Below are positions 5,254 through 44,831 of a stretch of 46,660 nucleotides of DNA, in pieces. Under the pieces are notes generated by a model, which saw nothing but the letters and a program-made list of their open reading frames with translations, was not told the origin of the DNA and made no database searches. Within the stretch, counting starts at the first letter, position 1; each line of letters starts with the position of its first letter. The translations under genes and the position numbers were made by a program. The DNA comes from Escherichia phage aalborv, in the sequence record NC_049829.1; one strand, given 5' to 3'.

Positions 5254-5269
5254 ATGTCACTGCTACTTT

Positions 5270-5296
5270 TACCCCGCATTGCGGGTTTTTTTTTTG
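5270..5296 (+). terminator. intrinsic terminator after primase gene
   Basis: Stem CCCGC..GCGGG followed by run of 10 T. Confidence 0.6.
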
Positions 5297-5352
5297 CCTT
5301 AGCAAATGCTATTATCTGCATTGACATTAATATGCAACACGGGAGAAAACGC

Positions 5353-5979
5353 ATGGCAATTTACAGAACCGGACAAGCGTCAATGGACGCGCAAGGTTAT
5401 ATCACTGGATACGACACAAAATGGCGAGAGCAACTAACGCTCATTCGCCCTGGTGCAACAATCTTTTTCATTGATGCTCCATTTCAAGCGGCTGTGATCA
5501 GTGAAGTTATCAGCGATACACAAATCCGCGCCATCACAACTGGCGGCGCTGAAATTGGGCGAAGCAACTACATTATTTTGCTGCATGACTCAATAACTGT
5601 TGACGGCCTGGCGCAAGATGTTGCGGAAACGCTGCGTTACTATCAAAGCAAAGAAACTCAGATCGAGGAATCTATTGAATTTCTCAAAAACTTTGACCTA
5701 AAACAGTTGCAAGATCTGGCTAATCAGGGTAAAGGTGATGCAGAGAAAACAGCCAATGATCGTGCTGCTACTGAACAACTGAAAAACGACACTCAACAGA
5801 TAAAGGATTCTGCTGTTGCTGAAACAAACCAGATTAAAGCAGACACTAACGCATTCAAAGAGCAAAAGGCAAAAGTTGACAAGCAACAAGAGGAGATCGA
5901 AACACTTAAATCTGAAATTGCAGATCTCAAAGAGGCGGTGGCGGCGTTACTCGACAAGCCAACAACGCTGGAAAATTAA
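5353..5979 (+). CDS. hypothetical protein with C-terminal coiled coil
   Basis: Start trimmed to ATG 5353 (GGGAGA SD) because track N-terminus spans terminator 5270..5296; C-terminal heptad-like K/E/Q-rich region; followed by terminator 5996..6024. Confidence 0.5.
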   Translation: MAIYRTGQASMDAQGYITGYDTKWREQLTLIRPGATIFFIDAPFQAAVISEVISDTQIRAITTGGAEIGRSNYIILLHDSITVDGLAQDVAETLRYYQSKETQIEESIEFLKNFDLKQLQDLANQGKGDAEKTANDRAATEQLKNDTQQIKDSAVAETNQIKADTNAFKEQKAKVDKQQEEIETLKSEIADLKEAVAALLDKPTTLEN

Positions 5980-5995
5980 CAAAAAATAATCACAA

Positions 5996-6024
5996 GGCGC
6001 GGCTACGGCTGCGCCTTTTTTCGT
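5996..6024 (+). terminator. intrinsic terminator after coiled-coil protein gene
   Basis: GC-rich stem GGCGC..GCGCC followed by TTTTTT. Confidence 0.55.
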
Positions 6025-6337
6025 CTTTATGCCATTTGCTGACATATCGCTTACAAATATTTTATATCTATTCCTGGTAATTTGGCGCACACCCTTTGTC
6101 ATACCATAAATATTGCAAACTTTTTTTTAATTTTTTAACGTCAAAGAGAGCACGAACAATAGCTGATTAAGGTCACTCACCAATATCAATTATGAAATCG
6201 GCAATGTCAGGTTTTAACGGGCTTGGAAGTATGAGCGGAATGTTGTCAATAATGACCAATGGAAAACTTAATGCTCATCAAGCTTAACTTGCAAAGCGAA
6301 TTGCTGTTAAGGTTATTGCCGTGCTTGTGATGGCTGA

Positions 6338-7569: not shown

Positions 7570-7848
7570 TTAGTGTTTTGTTTCTTCTTTAGTGTGTAAT
7601 TTAATAAGATTTTCCATCATGCGATCAGAACTTTCTTTTACCGCCTTGATTGCTTCCTCGTTGTCTTCACTCATTGTCGCAATGAGCACGACGTTATCGA
7701 CTGCATCTATTACTTTTCTGATGTACTCCATTTCTTCTTCGCCTGCTGTTGGATCAAGTGGCTCTACAAAGTCACGAAGCAACATAGCCATGCCAGTTGC
7801 AAAATTGTTGATATGAACTGCTACCTCTGACACTTGTTTGTTTTCCAT
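7570..7848 (-). CDS. hypothetical acidic protein (92 aa)
   Basis: ORF track; degenerate motif-type promoter upstream (7880..7921). Confidence 0.45.
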   Translation of the reverse strand: MENKQVSEVAVHINNFATGMAMLLRDFVEPLDPTAGEEEMEYIRKVIDAVDNVVLIATMSEDNEEAIKAVKESSDRMMENLIKLHTKEETKH

Positions 7849-7929: not shown

Positions 7930-8991
7930 TTAAATAAGATATTGCTTAAACTGGCGTCGCACCCAATCAGGAGTATCAAGGCAAACCTCCGGCTCGCCGT
8001 TTGAATACGAAGGCCAAACGTCATGTTGCTGGCACATGGCAAACTGGTTAATTACGCTCATGTACTGAATGCGCCCGATCTTCAATTGCTCGCTGTTCAT
8101 GCGGAAAGCTAACGGCAAGTAAGGCTCTTTCTTCTCTTGCGCTAACAGGCGCACAACTATAGGTCGCTTTTCTTCTGGATACGCTTTCCTGAATAAATCA
8201 CATTGCAACGCCATTTTCAGATAATAGCCGTGATTGTAAGCCAGGCGCATAAACTCAACCGGATTAGCGATCATTGTTGTTTTGTAGTCAGTAATCACAA
8301 TCGCCTCTGGATAAATAATATCGCGGCAAATCGGTTGACCTTTTTCATCGTAACCATCAATCAGCGTTGCGGTGACGTTCTTTGTTACGTCAACGTGATC
8401 GCATCGCACTTTGACTTTTACGCCGTTGATTTCACCGAACAACGATAATTCACGTTGTGCTGTCTTGCTATTCATACATGCGTTATGTTCCGGTATTGAT
8501 TCCAGAACCTGGCGCATTGCAACGCACGAATCGTAATCTTTAGCTTCGATTAACTGAACCCCATCGGCCCTGGCCTGACTTTCTGCGATCATGTCGATTA
8601 ACCACATGACGTTAAGGTCTTCTCCGCAGTCGACCATCATTTTTATAAGTTCGGGGTAAGTCTTTCCGGTTGTACCTTTCAGGCCAAATGATTTCAGCTT
8701 TGCAGCAAGCGCCGTTTGGCTGGTTATCAGATCCTTAAAGTCTTCTGGCGCTGGCGCACGGCGATAGTTTTTTTCGAAAAGCTCCTTGCTTTCAAAGTTG
8801 GTATGCGACTGCGTACCAAAAACTAGCGCCTTGCTCTTGTCGTCACGCGGCTTGAACTTCCACGCTGCCGGGCATGTGCTGTAAATCTCCGCCAGGCTTG
8901 AACCGCTAACATAATCAGCCGTCCACGCTTCTGGATCGTGATAAAGCTCGTTGCTCATTTCTTCGCTGGTGTACGCCATAAACTTATTCAT
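7930..8991 (-). CDS. PD-(D/E)XK exonuclease (RecE/YqaJ-like) partner of ERF
   Basis: 353 aa; D-x-K-containing segment IVITDYKT; synteny with ERF and SSB; GAGGG SD; sigma70-like promoter 9015..9048. Confidence 0.55.
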   Translation of the reverse strand: MNKFMAYTSEEMSNELYHDPEAWTADYVSGSSLAEIYSTCPAAWKFKPRDDKSKALVFGTQSHTNFESKELFEKNYRRAPAPEDFKDLITSQTALAAKLKSFGLKGTTGKTYPELIKMMVDCGEDLNVMWLIDMIAESQARADGVQLIEAKDYDSCVAMRQVLESIPEHNACMNSKTAQRELSLFGEINGVKVKVRCDHVDVTKNVTATLIDGYDEKGQPICRDIIYPEAIVITDYKTTMIANPVEFMRLAYNHGYYLKMALQCDLFRKAYPEEKRPIVVRLLAQEKKEPYLPLAFRMNSEQLKIGRIQYMSVINQFAMCQQHDVWPSYSNGEPEVCLDTPDWVRRQFKQYLI

Positions 8992-9014
8992 GATTTGCCC
9001 TCGTTTGTTGGTAT

Positions 9015-9048
9015 GCCTGCATTGTAGCTATTTGATGCGTTTAGTCAA
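9015..9048 (-). promoter_or_regulatory. sigma70-like promoter TTGACT-16-TACAAT for exonuclease-ERF-SSB operon
   Basis: -35 at 9043..9048, -10 at 9021..9026 (minus strand); 24 nt upstream of exonuclease start. Confidence 0.5.
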
Positions 9049-9101
9049 TAGCTATTTTGTTTTTTATGTTCTAACAACGTTCTCACCAACCTGGATAACA
9101 A

Positions 9102-9117
9102 AACTTACATGTAAGTT
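9102..9117. promoter_or_regulatory. 16-bp perfect palindrome AACTTACATGTAAGTT (candidate operator) within control region A
   Basis: Exact palindrome; embedded in longer imperfect dyad GGATAACA...TATCC. Confidence 0.45.
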
Positions 9118-9288
9118 ATTGATAAATATCCGAGTTGTCTTTTTGTTCTCTTGTTCCTCCATTTGCGCCGGATATAGATATATACACACATAACCACTGA
9201 CACATGCATAATCACAGAAAAATCACCAGACACGCAAAATCACACAAAACATAGATAACAATAAAGAACAGATATAAATATATATACC

Positions 9289-9304
9289 ACTAACTTATTG
9301 ATTT
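9289..9304. repeat. 16-mer ACTAACTTATTGATTT shared by control regions A and B (copy A)
   Basis: Identical 16-mer at 37186..37201; flanking ATATAAATA / TATATATA blocks also similar. Confidence 0.8.
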
Positions 9305-9415
9305 ATATGTATTTATATATATTTATCTGTATATATTGCTCTCTATTGTTGTTTACTTTTTGCTCTAAATTTACGCCTCCGCAGATTTGAGAACGCATGA
9401 GAACAAAAAGAACAG

Positions 9416-9465
9416 AATAGCACTTTTTGCTAAACGCCTGCTGTAAGATCGTGTATAGTTGCAAC
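9416..9465 (+). promoter_or_regulatory. motif-type promoter (variant AATAGCACTTTTTGCTAAA) for Cor-like gene
   Basis: Motif 9416..9435; -10 TATAGT 9454..9459 after 21-bp spacer. Confidence 0.5.
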
Positions 9466-9490
9466 CAACAACAACGAAGGAGATACCAAG

Positions 9491-9718
9491 ATGAAAAAAT
9501 TAATCGCCGTTTTGATTGCAGCCGTAACCCTGACTGGTTGCGCAAATATGCCTAAACGTGAATGCACGGCTATTTATGAAAATAGCGGTATGCAGTATTC
9601 AGTTGCTATTTTTGGAGTAAAACGAGTTGGCGACCGCACTCTTGTTAAGGCTGGCTATCCGTTTAATTTTCAGTGGGTAAGTATTGATAACTTTAAAAAC
9701 GCTGATTGCAGTCTGTAA
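9491..9718 (+). CDS. small outer-membrane lipoprotein, Cor-like superinfection exclusion candidate
   Basis: 75 aa; signal peptide plus lipobox LTGC; only plus-strand gene between the exonuclease and tail modules; promoter 9416..9465; terminator 9725..9750. Confidence 0.5.
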   Translation: MKKLIAVLIAAVTLTGCANMPKRECTAIYENSGMQYSVAIFGVKRVGDRTLVKAGYPFNFQWVSIDNFKNADCSL

Positions 9719-9724
9719 ATAAAA

Positions 9725-9750
9725 ATAAAGGGGCGAAAGCCCCTTTTTTC
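9725..9750. terminator. bidirectional intrinsic terminator between convergent Cor-like and tail-fiber-like genes
   Basis: Stem GGGGC-gaaa-GCCCC flanked by A-tract and T-tract. Confidence 0.65.
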
Positions 9751-9751
9751 A

Positions 9752-10390
9752 TTAGTCGTAAATATCAGTCTTGATGGCAATTATTGAGTTTCCGTTATTT
9801 GTTATAGAACCTGTTCCTGGAGTTGTCCTTGCCGCACCTATCCTTGTGCTTGAACCATCATACCTGCATGATGTATATATGTCAGACGCACCCATACCTA
9901 TAACAGCACCAAGCCTTGATGGGCAAACGGCATAAGAACCAGATAATGTCTGATCTATATTAGTTCCCCCTGAAGAACCATGAGCACCAATTGTCACAAG
10001 GTCTGTTAGCACCCTGCTTTCATTAGTTAAAACCAACTTGCCGCTTGCATCCCATATAGCCATTCCATATTTTGGCAGAGTTTGAGGGAATATGGCAAAT
10101 ATATAAACAGTCATTGTAAATGATTGCCCGTATGGATTGCCTCCGTTTACATAAATGTTGCCACCATTCCTGTAAGCTATTAATGCAGTTGGCTGCTGTG
10201 TGTTTGTTGTTTTTATAAATGCCATACATTGATAAGATTGATTTAATGGTATATTTGCGCTTGCGCTATGATAGGCAGAATTGCCAGAAGATGAATAAGT
10301 GTACTTGCCATATAAGCAAAATGGCGTTGATTTTGGTGTGATAAATGGATTCCCATTTGATAAAGATAACATTGCTCCATATTCAGCCAT
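9752..10390 (-). CDS. putative tail fiber / host-range protein (paralog A)
   Basis: Start set at MAEYG (ATG 10390) directly after stop of upstream paralog with GAGGG SD; Gly/Ser/Thr/Asn/Tyr-rich; downstream of J. Confidence 0.4.
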   Translation of the reverse strand: MAEYGAMLSLSNGNPFITPKSTPFCLYGKYTYSSSGNSAYHSASANIPLNQSYQCMAFIKTTNTQQPTALIAYRNGGNIYVNGGNPYGQSFTMTVYIFAIFPQTLPKYGMAIWDASGKLVLTNESRVLTDLVTIGAHGSSGGTNIDQTLSGSYAVCPSRLGAVIGMGASDIYTSCRYDGSSTRIGAARTTPGTGSITNNGNSIIAIKTDIYD

Positions 10391-10391
10391 T

Positions 10392-10697
10392 TTAAGCCCT
10401 CTCAAGAAAAACAACTAACTCGCACTTTGAAGAAGAATACCTATTTGGACCAACTGACGATGTAGGACTAATTCTTATTGTATTTCCAGATGCCACTATT
10501 TCCCTTCCAACTCCTCTAGCGCCTTCATCAAGTGAAACAACATACCCAACCTTAAAACCACTTGGAATGCTAAAGCTCCACGATCCGCTTGTCTGACCAG
10601 CGGCAAGACTGATGACACCAACAACGGAAACTGGCTTAATCCCGTAGTTATTATATTTTCCGTTAGCATCCCACGTTGAAATTCCATACTCAGCCAT
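10392..10697 (-). CDS. putative tail fiber / host-range protein (paralog B)
   Basis: Start set at MAEYG (ATG 10697, GGAGG SD) because track N-terminus overlaps J; shares N-terminal MAEYG..WDA..GK block with paralog A. Confidence 0.4.
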   Translation of the reverse strand: MAEYGISTWDANGKYNNYGIKPVSVVGVISLAAGQTSGSWSFSIPSGFKVGYVVSLDEGARGVGREIVASGNTIRISPTSSVGPNRYSSSKCELVVFLERA

Positions 10698-10740: not shown

Positions 10741-13700
10741 TTACCACGTACCAGTAAGCCTACCAATCTGAACACGCAAGCGCCCGTTTGCGTCTCGTAC
10801 ACTTATCGTTTCGTTTGTCAACTTCATGGCCCCTTCTCCAGGAGTAGAGCCATAATTTTCAAACGTGCCGTTTTTATCCAGCCTCCATCCTGTTTGATTC
10901 CAAACGTAATTGTTTGATTGGATGAAGTTACCGATCATCGCATTGGTGATTGAACCATTTTTCACTAACAGGCTGTTAATGAAAACTTGGTTGTTTTCGA
11001 CCACAAAAGGCAATGTATACGACCCTCCGGTAGAACTCGTCATGATCGCAAATCTTCCAGCATCAAAAAGGATTTGTGAAATCAACCCTTGAGCGCTGTT
11101 TGATAGCTGCATGACCATTCCGGCGCTGTACTTCTGCCCGTTGTATGTCAATCCAAGTTTCATTGCGTACTGTGCGCCAACTCCATTAACGCCAGCCCAT
11201 GAATCAAGTTTTTCAGTAAGCGCCGATTCAACATCTCCAAACTTCGCTGTTAGTGCTGTATCAGCCGAAACGCGCGCCTCTGTTTCGCTTGCAATCGCCT
11301 CCTCAACTCTCGTTAATTGCCCCTGAATATCATCACCAATCTGTGATTTCAATTTCTCAATGGCTGTGGCTCGCGTTTCCGATTCTGTTGCAATTGCCTG
11401 ATCAAGTCTCGTTACTTCGCTAGTTATCTCCTCGTTAAATTCAGCCTTTAGTTGCGTCATTGCGGTAACGCGCGCTTCCGTTTCATTTGCGATCAATTGG
11501 ATTGATTGTCTAAACTCGGCTTTGCGTTTTCCGTTCTCCTTCCTCATAATCCTAACGTCTGTATCATTCGCCAATGCGTTTTGAATGATGCTTTGTGCCT
11601 GATCCTTGATTTTGTTTGCGCTATCAATGGCGTTCTCTTTCAGATCCTTTCCTGCTTCGGTATCAAAAATCTTATCAAGAATATCTCCTAAAACAGCCTC
11701 AACATCATCTGAAGCCATGCCTCTAACAAAATCAGTCCAGCCGGAAACGTTGCCGATTCTGTCAACACTTCGGATTCTATACCATACAACATGACCAGCC
11801 GGAAGCGTACCGTGCCAGTATTCATATTGTGGATATGGGATCAGCGTTAACAGGCTTGAGTTTTCAGCCGTTCCATCAGGCGACTGATGAAGCTCAATGT
11901 ATGCCGTGTCTCCGCTCCCTTCTGGCATCCCCCACTTAACACGAATGCCAAACACCTCATTGTCTGATGCAGTTAAGTTAACTGGCGCGCCTGGCTCTCC
12001 TACCTTACCAGTCAGTGAAGCTGTCACAATTCTGGACCACGGCGACGTAGAACCGGAAGCAGAAACAGATCTTACCCTTACCTGGTAGTTTCCTGAATAA
12101 ATACCTTCAACCTCAATTTCTTTGTTTGCAGTCTGTGGTGTATTCAGCCAGTTGCCATCACCTTTTCGCCACTGCATTTCATACAGCGATGCGTAAGGTA
12201 CTTTATCCCACGACACAACCATTGTTTCAACGCTTGCACCCTGGACAATTCGCGAGTAGGAGGATATTTGCACATTTTCAGGCGCTGCCATTGTGTCAGG
12301 CTGGACAATTGAAGTTGGCCTGTCGTCAATGTTTACTCCATAATCAATCTCGTCGTATTTGTTCGGGTCATATTCAACAGCTGTGATGGAGTATGTAAAT
12401 TCATCATCATCATCACCTTTGCCGATACTCGTTACAACGTATTGCTGCAATGCAATATCAGTGCGGTCGATTGCAAAAACCGTGTCCGGTTTAACTTCAA
12501 ATCCAAACCCAATGTTTAACTCAATGGTTTTTCCGTCACCGCTTACCTTTGAGATTGTGCGCTTAACTGGCTTTCCGTCAGGCTTGTTGATGATAATGAA
12601 ATCACCTGGTCGCGCGTCAATCTTAAACGGAGCGAACACCTGCAAGCCGGAAACTTCCATCACGCGACCTGATAGGTTTAATTTAAGGTTGCTGCTGTGA
12701 AAATTGTCAGAAATAGCAATCACATCACCTATTGATGGGATCATGCCTTCCAGTCCAGTAGCAAAGTTTACCGTAGTGCTGCGCAAGTTGGTTTTTAGTA
12801 TCCATCGACCGCGCCGATTAGCCTCACTCCTGCGTGTACATCCGATAGCTGTTATGCTTGTTGGATTGTATCCAAATCGCAATGCTGCCTCGGTGTCGAA
12901 TACGCCCTCAACGTCCTGTTGATACATGTTTTGTTCGTCGTCGAACGTCACGTTGCACTGCGTGTACATGCTCTTTTCGCTTGCTGTTGTGTACTGAAAA
13001 TCACCATCAACAACGTTGTCATTGGTGAAGATGTACGACGGATCGCGCGGCTTATCAATGACGATTGACAAGCTCTCGCCATTCCAAAAGCTCATGCCTC
13101 GGAAGATTGAGCAAATATCACGAATAAGCTGATAAGCCTCAATCTGACTCTGGATAACAACATCACATAGATAGCGTGGCTCTGTGCCTCCTTTTCCGTC
13201 AGGCACTTTCTGATCGCAGTATTGCGCCGCTTCGTAAAGACTCCATTTGTCAACATGCACACCAAGTTCTCTCTGATCTAATCCGTATCGCTGGTTTGTG
13301 ATAATGTCATAAAGTACCCACGCCGGATTGTTCGACCACGCTTTCTTGAATGTACCATCCCATGAACCGTGATACTCTCGCATTACCGTATCGTAATTGC
13401 TCGGAACATTAATCAACTTCCATTTCTTCTTGATTGAAATGTTAGGGATCTGGTTAGGGAACAACTCACTGTCAAATTCAACGTATACAAGACCAGTCAG
13501 AGGATAACGGAATTTTGCATCAATAACCTCAGCGTAACTTTGTAGCTTAATCAGATCAGTAACACGAGAAGATGTGCTGTCTGCCGTAACCCTTCTAACC
13601 CTAAGTAGTACGCGATCATTAAATGCCGGAAGGTCAATCCTCCGGCTTCTGTCGTAACCGGAACGCGTTTTACCTTCGATAGTGTCTAGCAATACCTCTT

Positions 13701-14166
13701 TGTAAGAGTCTCCGTCAACAGCCATATCAACAGCATAAGTAACCTTAACGCCGACAAGATCGCCGTTATCCTCTTGTCTAATGCCTGTTGGCATTAGCAT
13801 TTTGATTCTGATAGCCGATAATGTTTTGTTGGTTACAGAAATTACATAAGGATTTGATGTAGTAATGTCACGCGCCAGCGTCACTTCGCTTGATGTGTCA
13901 GTAAACCCCTGGATGTAATCTTGCGTCTGCGTTCCAGGTCGAAATTCAGCTTTCACACCCTGGTAGTTAACAGTTCCGTCGTCTGCAATTACCGGAACAT
14001 CATCAAGATACAGATCGCGAAGTGTAAAATCTGGATCGCACTCGCCATCGGAAACGGCAAGAAGGATTTTGATTTTGTTGATTGAGATCAGGTTATCTTC
14101 CATCTCTTTCGGAACATAAGGTTTTGATGATCCGCCCTTACTGCCCGTTATCATATTTTCAGTCAT
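10741..14166 (-). CDS. tail tip / host specificity protein (lambda J-like central tail fiber)
   Basis: 1141 aa, largest ORF after tape measure; position after I-K-L-M homologs; AAGGTG SD; sigma70-like promoter 14194..14228. Confidence 0.8.
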   Translation of the reverse strand: MTENMITGSKGGSSKPYVPKEMEDNLISINKIKILLAVSDGECDPDFTLRDLYLDDVPVIADDGTVNYQGVKAEFRPGTQTQDYIQGFTDTSSEVTLARDITTSNPYVISVTNKTLSAIRIKMLMPTGIRQEDNGDLVGVKVTYAVDMAVDGDSYKEVLLDTIEGKTRSGYDRSRRIDLPAFNDRVLLRVRRVTADSTSSRVTDLIKLQSYAEVIDAKFRYPLTGLVYVEFDSELFPNQIPNISIKKKWKLINVPSNYDTVMREYHGSWDGTFKKAWSNNPAWVLYDIITNQRYGLDQRELGVHVDKWSLYEAAQYCDQKVPDGKGGTEPRYLCDVVIQSQIEAYQLIRDICSIFRGMSFWNGESLSIVIDKPRDPSYIFTNDNVVDGDFQYTTASEKSMYTQCNVTFDDEQNMYQQDVEGVFDTEAALRFGYNPTSITAIGCTRRSEANRRGRWILKTNLRSTTVNFATGLEGMIPSIGDVIAISDNFHSSNLKLNLSGRVMEVSGLQVFAPFKIDARPGDFIIINKPDGKPVKRTISKVSGDGKTIELNIGFGFEVKPDTVFAIDRTDIALQQYVVTSIGKGDDDDEFTYSITAVEYDPNKYDEIDYGVNIDDRPTSIVQPDTMAAPENVQISSYSRIVQGASVETMVVSWDKVPYASLYEMQWRKGDGNWLNTPQTANKEIEVEGIYSGNYQVRVRSVSASGSTSPWSRIVTASLTGKVGEPGAPVNLTASDNEVFGIRVKWGMPEGSGDTAYIELHQSPDGTAENSSLLTLIPYPQYEYWHGTLPAGHVVWYRIRSVDRIGNVSGWTDFVRGMASDDVEAVLGDILDKIFDTEAGKDLKENAIDSANKIKDQAQSIIQNALANDTDVRIMRKENGKRKAEFRQSIQLIANETEARVTAMTQLKAEFNEEITSEVTRLDQAIATESETRATAIEKLKSQIGDDIQGQLTRVEEAIASETEARVSADTALTAKFGDVESALTEKLDSWAGVNGVGAQYAMKLGLTYNGQKYSAGMVMQLSNSAQGLISQILFDAGRFAIMTSSTGGSYTLPFVVENNQVFINSLLVKNGSITNAMIGNFIQSNNYVWNQTGWRLDKNGTFENYGSTPGEGAMKLTNETISVRDANGRLRVQIGRLTGTW

Positions 14167-43933: not shown

Positions 43934-43960
43934 AGGAGGCGTTAAGCCTCCTTTTTGTTG
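43934..43960. terminator. bidirectional terminator between rightward early array and lysis cassette
   Basis: Stem AGGAGGC..GCCTCCT followed by TTTTTGTTG; spanin stop codon lies in the loop. Confidence 0.6.
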
Positions 43961-44340
43961 CCTTTGCGGTAGGAAAAGTAAAGCATTGACAAAAGACCAC
44001 TAAAAATTGCCGCGCAATAGATTATAGGATCGTACCAATTCCTTTGTCCACCTTGCACGACCTGGATTTTATCAGCCTTGATGGTGTTAGCCTGAATGGT
44101 TGACGTAGTAAAATCCTTCTTGCTGGAAGTGTCCACCTTATCAACCGCAGATTCCTTTATTGTAGTTTCCTGTTTTGTGCTGGTGTCCTGCTTTGCGGTA
44201 ACGCCAACGGTCTGCTTTACGTTCTCCGCTCCTGCCTGTGCTGTGATTTCCGGCTTACTACCGATTAATCCGGTCAGTGGCATAACGCTTGAACATCCAG
44301 ACAAAATAACAGCGATCACGATTATTGATAACTTTCTCAT
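43942..44340 (-). CDS. unimolecular spanin-like lipoprotein (outer-membrane lipoprotein with C-terminal TM anchor)
   Basis: Lipobox LSGCSS after signal peptide; C-terminal TM helix IIYCAAIFSGLLSMLYF; last gene of lysis cassette. Confidence 0.6.
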   Translation of the reverse strand: MRKLSIIVIAVILSGCSSVMPLTGLIGSKPEITAQAGAENVKQTVGVTAKQDTSTKQETTIKESAVDKVDTSSKKDFTTSTIQANTIKADKIQVVQGGQRNWYDPIIYCAAIFSGLLSMLYFSYRKGNKKEA

Positions 44341-44342
44341 AA

Positions 44343-44831
44343 TTACAGATCCTTAATGCAATATTTAAATTCCACAGCGCGGCGGTTTCGCAGTCCTTTA
44401 GACGTTTCTTTCTTTCCTGTTTTTGGATTGGTGTATTTTGTCCATCGCCATAACTGCTCGCACGCTTCCATATAACGACCGTTATTAATCAGCTTAAGCA
44501 TGGTTGAATTTCTAAAAGCACCAGTGCCAGCATTGTATGTGAATGAATACATTGCCGCGCGCATTGTATCAGGAATATCAACATTAACACGCTTATCAAC
44601 TTCATCCTTTGCGATCTTGATATGCTTTGCCAGTAGCGCATCGCATTCTCTCTGCGTGTACGTCTTACCTGGTATTACGTCAGGTCCAGTTATTCCGGCG
44701 CAAACCGTCCATATTCCAGCAATATCTTTGTACGGCTTATATTTTACTCCTTCTATTTCCTCCAGCAACGGAGAAGTAAGAGCAAGAGCAACGCCAAAAG
44801 CCGCAGCGGTCACTCTTTGTTTTATGCTCAT
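44343..44831 (-). CDS. endolysin, GH24 lysozyme with N-terminal SAR-like signal-anchor
   Basis: E-x8-D-x5-T catalytic pattern ([22 protein letters not shown]); Gly/Ala-rich weakly hydrophobic N-terminus. Confidence 0.75.

What the first reader, a model, noticed from the sequence alone, without database searches (positions are those of the whole stretch)
9491..9718. Cor-like lipoprotein as superinfection exclusion candidate
A 75-aa lipoprotein (signal peptide, lipobox LTGC) with its own promoter and terminator, encoded convergently against the tail-fiber-like genes. This architecture matches Cor/Llp-type lipoproteins that inactivate the phage's own outer-membrane receptor after infection.
Basis: inference. 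Interest (0 to 1): 0.45.

Follow-up and report, generated by a model that had tools for sequence, protein, structure and literature searches.

The report
Known Cor exclusion lipoprotein, T1-like phage

Summary
The ORF at 9491-9718 (+) is real. It encodes 75 aa and has a Shine-Dalgarno site, a lipoprotein signal peptide with lipobox LTG|C, and a strong bidirectional terminator shared with the convergent tail-tip operon. A sigma-70 consensus promoter could not be located. A promoter is implied only because this is a lone + strand gene with a conserved upstream block.

The protein passes NCBIfam's curated equivalog model for "phage exclusion lipoprotein Cor" (70 bits, cut-off 31) and matches PHROG 1119 (E 4e-29). 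It is 100% identical to the annotated exclusion protein of phage EC147. It is 98.7% identical to Cor of JLBYU41 and 92% to Cor of PeterMerian, both experimentally FhuA-dependent, and 56% to T1 Cor.

The conserved cassette gpJ, 101-aa protein, 212-aa protein, cor is present. Published work links this cassette to FhuA use.

The window is an essentially complete Hanrivervirus (Drexlerviridae) genome.

The exclusion phenotype itself remains untested for this allele.

The parts
9491..9718 (+). cor CDS, 75-aa prolipoprotein including the stop codon. The signal peptide is aa 1-16 (9491-9538). The mature 59-aa lipoprotein starts at Cys17 (9539). Conserved Cys25 and Cys73 are mature Cys9 and Cys57.
   Evidence: ORF list. 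NCBIfam NF047972 scores 70.1 bits against a cut-off of 31. PHROG 1119 gives E 4.2e-29. The protein is 100% identical to EC147 URC25733.1. G16, C17, C25 and C73 are invariant in the alignment.
9478..9483 (+). Shine-Dalgarno sequence AAGGAG, 7 nt upstream of the ATG
   Evidence: Read directly from the sequence. The GGAG core is conserved in all relatives aligned except T1.
9420..9465 (+). Conserved upstream block holding the only plausible -10 element (TATAGT, 9454-9459). This is a candidate cor promoter and is not demonstrated.
   Evidence: The block is conserved among window, JLBYU41, EC147 and PeterMerian. The best hexamer pair is only 8/12, and the consensus scan reports nothing here.
9727..9746 (.). 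Bidirectional intrinsic terminator shared by cor (+) and the J-p557-p425 operon (-)
   Evidence: Terminator scan hits on both strands. The RNA fold gives -13.9 kcal/mol, z -3.8.
9752..10390 (-). 212-aa protein (PHROG 425, labelled 'membrane associated protein'), the second gene of the cassette downstream of gpJ. It is a candidate receptor-binding or accessory protein. It is context for cor, not part of Cor itself.
   Evidence: PHROG 425 gives E 2.8e-67. It is 96.7% identical to the JLBYU41 protein. It has no Pfam or NCBIfam hit.
10392..10697 (-). 101-aa protein (PHROG 557, labelled 'outer membrane protein'), the first gene downstream of gpJ and part of the same cassette
   Evidence: PHROG 557 gives E 1.1e-29. 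It is 98% identical to the JLBYU41 protein.
10741..14166 (-). gpJ-like central tail fibre / tail tip protein (1141 aa)
   Evidence: Pfam Phage_Tail_Tip, FNIII-A_GpJ and Phage-tail_3 all match. PHROG 31 gives E 0.

Best explanation
The gene is cor, the superinfection-exclusion lipoprotein of a T1-like (Drexlerviridae, Tempevirinae, Hanrivervirus) virulent phage.

Shown here: it is a real, selectively constrained gene. It encodes a prolipoprotein that meets the curated Cor family threshold. Its predicted fold is closest to T5 Llp. It lies in the conserved J-p557-p425-cor cassette.

Inferred mechanism, from experiments on phi80, N15 and mEp167 Cor and from the FhuA-Llp crystal structure: the gene is transcribed as its own unit after infection. 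The precursor is exported, lipidated at Cys17 and cleaved by signal peptidase II. [quoted passage not shown] A Cys25-Cys73 disulfide ties the termini of a small beta-barrel. The protein binds the periplasmic face and plug of the TonB-dependent transporter FhuA and locks it in a non-native state. Extracellular loops then fold inward, so FhuA-dependent phages (its own progeny, T1, T5, phi80) can no longer adsorb or inject, and ferrichrome uptake is lost.

In a virulent phage the benefit would be protection of the infected cell from superinfection, and of released progeny from being wasted on receptor in cell debris.
For: Family: NCBIfam NF047972 'phage exclusion lipoprotein Cor' is an equivalog model, and the protein scores 70.1 bits against a cut-off of 31, aligned over residues 1-73. 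PHROG 1119 gives E 4.2e-29 over 1-74.

Identity by tblastn and pairwise alignment:
- 100% to EC147
- 98.7% to JLBYU41 and grams
- 92% to PeterMerian
- 56% to T1 Cor
- 37% to phi80 Cor
- 33% to N15 Cor

Receptor: JLBYU41 is FhuA-dependent (PMC10373560). Its whole cassette is 97-99% identical to the window's. PeterMerian (Bas05) has FhuA as its terminal receptor (PMC8594841 supplement file 5). PMC13164509 reports that Cor together with both upstream proteins occurred in 10 BASEL phages, all of which use FhuA.

Synteny: the same gene order is seen in T1, phi80, N15, JLBYU60 and Motto.

Mechanism of the family: the FhuA-Llp structure and its model are in PMC9586334. The statement that Cor functionally inactivates FhuA, and that Cor and Llp are one structural family, is in bioRxiv 10.64898/2026.03.26.714494.

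Selection: pN/pS is 0.03-0.18.
Against: No experiment on this allele, or on any Hanrivervirus Cor, was found in the papers read. Exclusion and FhuA inactivation were shown for the temperate-phage Cor proteins, which are only 33-37% identical.

No consensus promoter was found, so the timing and level of expression are unknown.

PMC13164509 notes Cor-like proteins in BtuB-using phages, so family membership alone does not fix the target. Its reference list also cites Arguijo-Hernandez et al. [quoted passage not shown]
Confidence: 0.88

Rival explanations
1. It is a Cor-family lipoprotein but blocks a different TonB-dependent receptor (for example BtuB) rather than FhuA.
For: PMC13164509 reports Cor-like proteins in BtuB-using Markadamsvirinae and in one Tempevirinae species. 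FritzSarasin, in the related genus Warwickvirus, uses BtuB. Receptor modules are exchanged horizontally (PMC8594841; mosaic seen).
Against: The BtuB-linked Tempevirinae case lacks the p557 gene, whereas the window has both upstream genes. The two phages with the closest Cor and known receptors, JLBYU41 (98.7%) and PeterMerian (92%), both use FhuA. The whole cassette is 97-99% identical to that of JLBYU41.
Confidence: 0.05
2. It is a lysis lipoprotein (an o-spanin or Rz1-like protein) or another outer-membrane lipoprotein moron unrelated to receptor blocking.
For: It is a small lipoprotein. It gives a weak PHROG 812 'Rz-like spanin' hit (E 0.074), confined to residues 1-24.
Against: The phage's spanin is elsewhere. 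The lipoprotein at 43942-44340 (-) matches PHROG 1804 'Rz-like spanin' at E 1e-48 and lies next to the endolysin at 44343-44831. The spanin-like hit covers only the signal peptide, whereas the Cor models cover the full length above curated thresholds.
Confidence: 0.01
3. Cor works together with the two adjacent proteins (p557, p425) as a three-part exclusion cassette rather than alone. This idea is raised in PMC13164509.
For: The three genes are syntenic in T1-like, Dhillonvirus, phi80 and N15 genomes. PMC13164509 proposes that the two upstream proteins could be related to exclusion.
Against: p557 and p425 lie in the late tail operon behind gpJ on the opposite strand, separated from cor by a terminator. 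By inspection they have no signal peptide or transmembrane segment. PMC8594841 interprets them as receptor-binding proteins whose alleles track the receptor. In the window they have been exchanged independently of cor: cor is 100% identical to EC147 at the nucleotide level, while the two genes are 44-72% identical.
Confidence: 0.06

Closest known systems
Cor of Hanrivervirus/Warwickvirus phages (EC147 URC25733.1, JLBYU41 UGO55943.1, vojen YP_009901764.1, grams, PeterMerian QXV84024.1)
   Same: Identity is 92-100%. The length (75 aa), the position between the J-p557-p425 operon and recE, the convergent orientation and the shared terminator are all the same. All except the PeterMerian copy (deposited as 'hypothetical protein') are already annotated as superinfection exclusion protein.
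   Different: Essentially nothing differs in cor. The neighbouring p557/p425 module is of the vojen/JLBYU41 type rather than the EC147 type.
Cor of phage T1 (AAP49969.1) and of temperate phages phi80, N15, mEp167 and HK022. The temperate-phage proteins are the experimentally studied FhuA-inactivating lipoproteins.
   Same: Same family by curated HMM. The lipobox, the two conserved cysteines and the AGYPF motif are shared. The cassette downstream of gpJ is the same.
   Different: Identity is 56% to T1 and only 33-37% to phi80 and N15. In phi80 and N15 cor is co-directional with J, and in phi80 it is annotated as a moron with its own -35 and -10 signals and transcription start site. In T1-like phages and Dhillonvirus it is inverted and convergent. 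Here it would act in a lytic cycle, not from a prophage.
Llp, the lytic conversion lipoprotein of phage T5 (PDB 8A60 chain B, 7QJF)
   Different: Identity is about 18-22%. phmmer gives E 0.045, and a Cor profile does not find Llp. Llp lies next to the pb5 (oad) receptor-binding gene, and no pb5 homologue is present here.

Membership tests
Cor phage exclusion lipoprotein (NCBIfam NF047972 / PHROG 1119) | Full-length match to the curated family model, above its trusted cut-off | tested here: met
   NF047972 (equivalog) scores 70.1 bits against a cut-off of 31, aligned over residues 1-73. PHROG 1119 gives E 4.2e-29 over residues 1-74.
Cor phage exclusion lipoprotein (NCBIfam NF047972 / PHROG 1119) | Lipoprotein signal peptide with a lipobox, and a +2 residue compatible with outer-membrane sorting | tested here: met
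   The N-terminus is MKKLIAVLIAAVTLTG|C-A-N. G16 and C17 are invariant in 14 Cor proteins. LPAM_1 scores 19.6 bits. Actual lipidation and localisation are not testable here.
Cor phage exclusion lipoprotein (NCBIfam NF047972 / PHROG 1119) | Two conserved cysteines in the mature part (intramolecular disulfide, as in Llp) | tested here: met
   C25 and C73 are invariant. The Llp Cys11-Cys58 disulfide is described in PMC9586334 and is reported as required for FhuA interaction in bioRxiv 10.64898/2026.03.26.714494. Bond formation itself was not tested.
Cor phage exclusion lipoprotein (NCBIfam NF047972 / PHROG 1119) | Position at the end of the gpJ - p557 - p425 cassette | tested here: met
   The window order is J 10741-14166, p557 10392-10697, p425 9752-10390, cor 9491-9718. 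The same order is seen in T1, phi80, N15, JLBYU60 and Motto.
Cor phage exclusion lipoprotein (NCBIfam NF047972 / PHROG 1119) | The phage carrying it uses FhuA as terminal receptor | not testable with these tools
   Indirect only. JLBYU41 (cassette 97-99% identical) and PeterMerian (Cor 92% identical) are FhuA-dependent.
Cor phage exclusion lipoprotein (NCBIfam NF047972 / PHROG 1119) | Expression excludes FhuA-dependent phages and inactivates FhuA transport | not testable with these tools
   This needs a plating or uptake experiment. It has been shown for phi80, N15 and mEp167 Cor according to PMC11436027 and bioRxiv 10.64898/2026.03.26.714494.
Llp (T5 lytic conversion lipoprotein) structural family | Llp-like small beta-barrel fold | tested here: met
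Llp (T5 lytic conversion lipoprotein) structural family | Significant sequence similarity to Llp | tested here: inconclusive
   phmmer against the PDB ranks 8a60_B first, but at E 0.045. A 14-sequence Cor profile does not retrieve it at E <= 1.
Llp (T5 lytic conversion lipoprotein) structural family | Adjacent to a pb5-type receptor-binding protein gene | tested here: not met
   The neighbours are PHROG 425 and PHROG 557 proteins and gpJ. Neither neighbour had a Pfam or NCBIfam hit.
Spanin (Rz1 / o-spanin or u-spanin) | Located in the lysis cassette, with a full-length match to spanin families | tested here: not met
   There is only a signal-peptide-level hit (PHROG 812, E 0.074, residues 1-24). 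The real spanin is at 43942-44340, beside the endolysin.

The most novel reading that the evidence does not exclude
Cor is identical at the nucleotide level to EC147's, while the adjacent two-gene putative receptor-binding module has been swapped. JLBYU41-type phages, unlike T5 or phi80, are not blocked by any single FhuA loop deletion (PMC10373560).

This Hanrivervirus Cor might therefore impose a broader or different allosteric rearrangement of FhuA than the EL7/EL8 closure seen with Llp. It would then act as a 'universal' periplasmic lock that excludes FhuA phages whichever loops they use. Alternatively, it might fail to exclude its own multi-loop-binding phage and serve mainly against competitors.
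Probability: 0.1. Interest if true: 0.35.

Novelty: already known. Interest (0 to 1): 0.07.

Why it matters
It matters little beyond correct annotation. The gene marks this phage as a predicted FhuA user that converts infected cells to FhuA-phage resistance. That is relevant when designing phage cocktails, because co-applied FhuA phages such as T1-, T5- or phi80-like ones would be excluded. It is also relevant when interpreting T1-type laboratory contaminations. The family, its genomic cassette and its likely mechanism are already published, and an identical protein is already annotated in GenBank.

Tried and rejected
1. Promoter. The consensus scan and a relaxed hexamer scan gave no convincing sigma-70 promoter upstream of cor. 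The attractive TTGCTA...TATAGT pair is 21 nt apart. The phi80 cor promoter region shows no evident similarity by eye, so it cannot be transferred.\n\n2. Sequence-level Cor-Llp homology. A 14-sequence Cor profile against PDB sequences did not find Llp. Only the single-sequence search did, and weakly. The link therefore rests on the fold and on published work.\n\n3. Deep alignment for structure prediction. The word-indexed protein search returned only 6 close homologues. The core was nevertheless confident.\n\n4. Spanin or lysis role. Rejected, because the spanin and endolysin lie at 43942-44831.\n\n5. Structured RNA. No Rfam family matched anywhere in the window.\n\n6. Chance ORF. Rejected on pN/pS and on the family hits.\n\n7. 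Antisense ORFs over the locus (9303-9545 and 9430-9567, - strand). These were not searched against any family library. They are treated as spurious because the + strand frame is the conserved, selectively constrained one.

Full report
**Observation**

The window holds an ATG-initiated ORF at 9491-9718 on the + strand that encodes 75 aa: MKKLIAVLIAAVTLTGCANMPKRECTAIYENSGMQYSVAIFGVKRVGDRTLVKAGYPFNFQWVSIDNFKNADCSL. A Shine-Dalgarno AAGGAG sits 7 nt upstream. The N-terminus is a textbook lipoprotein signal peptide: two lysines, an 11-residue hydrophobic core, and lipobox L-T-G-C with Cys17. Residue +2 is Ala, so by the E. coli Lol sorting rule (established knowledge) the mature 59-aa protein should go to the outer membrane.

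Eight nucleotides after the stop codon lies an 8-bp G+C-rich hairpin with a GAAA loop (9727-9746). It is flanked by T-runs on both strands. Its fold energy is -13.9 kcal/mol, z = -3.8 against shuffles. The hairpin serves both cor and the convergent - strand operon, which ends at 9752.

The one stated element I could not confirm is the promoter. The consensus scan reports no + strand site between 9213 and the ATG. A relaxed scan gives at best TAAACG-17-TATAGT, 8 of 12 matches. TTGCTA at 9427 is 21 nt from TATAGT at 9454, which is too far. A promoter must exist, because cor is the only + strand gene between - strand genes: recE-like 7930-8991 upstream and p425 9752-10390 downstream. The block 9420-9465 is also conserved among relatives. 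Its position remains inferred.

**The gene is real**

Against close relatives, substitutions are overwhelmingly synonymous. pN/pS is 0.03 against JLBYU41, 0.08 against PeterMerian and 0.18 against vojen. tblastn finds full-length homologues in 243 phage records.

**What it is**

The protein passes NCBIfam's equivalog model NF047972, 'phage exclusion lipoprotein Cor', at 70.1 bits against a curated cut-off of 31. It matches PHROG 1119, 'Cor superinfection exclusion protein', at E 4.2e-29 over its full length. Pfam has no model that it passes.

Identity to other Cor proteins:

| Phage | Identity to the window's Cor |
|---|---|
| EC147 (nucleotide sequence also identical; annotated 'super-infection exclusion protein') | 100% |
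| JLBYU41, grams | 98.7% |
| PeterMerian | 92% |
| T1 | 56% |
| phi80 | 37% |
| N15 | 33% |

The window as a whole is an essentially complete Hanrivervirus genome (Drexlerviridae, Tempevirinae). It is 93-96% identical over long stretches to vojen, herni, egaa, pSf-1 and JLBYU41.

**Context**

Downstream, on the - strand, lies the tail-tip operon:
- a gpJ-like central fibre (10741-14166; Pfam Phage_Tail_Tip, FNIII-A_GpJ);
- a 101-aa protein (10392-10697, PHROG 557);
- a 212-aa protein (9752-10390, PHROG 425).

The same four-gene order, J-p557-p425-cor, occurs in T1, phi80, N15, the Dhillonvirus JLBYU60 and phage Motto. The cor gene is co-directional with J in phi80 and N15, and inverted in the T1-like phages and Dhillonvirus.

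Maffei et al. [quoted passage not shown] PMC13164509 reports that Cor together with both upstream genes was found in 10 BASEL phages, all of which use FhuA.

**Which receptor**

Two phages with experimentally determined receptors carry near-identical Cor. JLBYU41 is FhuA-dependent (PMC10373560). Its Cor, p425 and p557 are 98.7%, 96.7% and 98.0% identical to the window's. PeterMerian (Bas05) has FhuA as its terminal receptor (PMC8594841 supplement). FhuA is therefore the well-supported predicted target. BtuB remains a low-probability alternative, because Cor-like proteins occur in some BtuB phages.

**Mechanism**

By sequence the link is marginal. phmmer gives E 0.045 with Llp as the top PDB hit, and a Cor profile does not retrieve it. 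C25 and C73 are invariant across 14 Cor proteins, as are G16 and C17. They correspond to Llp's Cys11-Cys58 disulfide (PMC9586334), which is reported as required for FhuA interaction (bioRxiv 10.64898/2026.03.26.714494). That preprint, and PMC13164509, independently conclude from predicted structures that Cor and Llp are one family.

The published Llp mechanism is this. The lipoprotein binds the periplasmic face and plug of FhuA in a non-native state. By reverse allostery this folds loops EL7 and EL8 inward, which occludes the phage-binding site and jams transport (PMC9586334). I transfer that mechanism to this Cor by inference. Only the family membership, the sequence features and the fold similarity are shown here.

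**Rivals**

A spanin role is excluded. The phage's spanin lipoprotein (43942-44340, PHROG 1804, E 1e-48) lies beside the endolysin (44343-44831).

A three-protein exclusion cassette, an idea raised in PMC13164509, is unlikely for three reasons. p557 and p425 belong to the late tail operon. By inspection they have no signal peptide or transmembrane segment. They have also been exchanged independently of cor: window and EC147 are 99-100% identical across 9000-9797 and from 10662 onward, but only 44-72% identical across 9798-10661, which is exactly these two genes. vojen shows the opposite pattern.

**Comparison with the known, and novelty**

This is a member of the Cor family by every sequence-testable criterion. 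The phenotype criteria (exclusion, FhuA inactivation) cannot be tested here. It is not Llp in the strict sense: identity is about 20% and there is no pb5 neighbour. It shares the fold and, very probably, the mechanism. An identical protein is already deposited and annotated, and the cassette-receptor association and the Cor-Llp relationship are published. The finding is therefore correct but already known, and interest is low.

The only mildly open questions concern Hanrivervirus Cor, whose phage does not depend on any single FhuA loop (PMC10373560). Does it induce the same loop closure as Llp, and does it exclude its own phage?

Noticed in passing
window 9752-10697 (- strand), compared with L002 (EC147) and L011 (vojen): There is a sharp mosaic boundary. 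The window is 99-100% identical to EC147 on both sides (cor and its upstream region; the 3' end of gpJ onward), but only 44-72% identical across exactly the two genes p425 and p557. vojen is 99-100% identical in those genes from about 9962 onward and less so over cor (86-96%). The putative receptor-binding module has therefore been exchanged as a unit, independently of cor.
   Followed up: partly
window 5254-5979 (+) and 5735-6139: The lateral tail fibre gene encodes only 241 aa, matching just the N-terminal part of tail-fibre families. About 3.4 kb present in vojen is absent: the rest of a 671-aa fibre plus most of the four hypothetical genes downstream. A similar short version occurs in EC147. 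This accounts for most of the difference between the 46.7-kb window and the roughly 51-kb relatives.
   Followed up: partly
window 9138-9150 (-) and 9399-9411 (+); AT-rich palindromes 9267-9326: The 13-mer GAGAACAAAAAGA occurs only twice in the window, in inverted orientation. Both copies lie in the 499-bp divergent intergenic region between the recE-like gene and cor. Chance expectation is 0.15, and 1 of 100 shuffles reached 2 matches. The + copy lies in a stretch conserved in relatives. It is possibly a regulator or promoter-associated site for the divergent transcription units.
   Followed up: partly
window 9752-10390 and 10392-10697 (- strand): The PHROG labels 'membrane associated protein' and 'outer membrane protein' are not supported by the sequences. 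By inspection neither protein has a signal peptide or a transmembrane segment, and neither has a Pfam or NCBIfam hit. Both begin with the same MAEYG motif, which suggests a shared N-terminal function such as docking to gpJ.
   Followed up: no
window 43942-44340 (-) and 44343-44831 (-): This is the window's other strong lipobox ORF (MRKLSIIVIAVILSGC...). It is the Rz-like spanin (PHROG 1804, E 1e-48), adjacent to the endolysin. It also gives a weak hit to the Cor PHROG (E 3e-5, residues 1-63), probably driven largely by the signal peptide.
   Followed up: yes
phage database hits to cor and to the window: Several records labelled 'Campylobacter phage' (for example A15b, Cor 97% identical) and 'Pseudomonas phage Motto' (Cor 69% identical) carry this E. 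coli-type Drexlerviridae cassette. The host labels look doubtful; T1-like phages are known laboratory contaminants.
   Followed up: no
window 7570-7848 (-): A 92-aa acidic protein lies between the recE-like and erf genes. It matches PHROG 11265, which is named 'tail length tape measure protein'. That name is implausible for its size and for its position in the recombination module, so it is likely a propagated misannotation.
   Followed up: no
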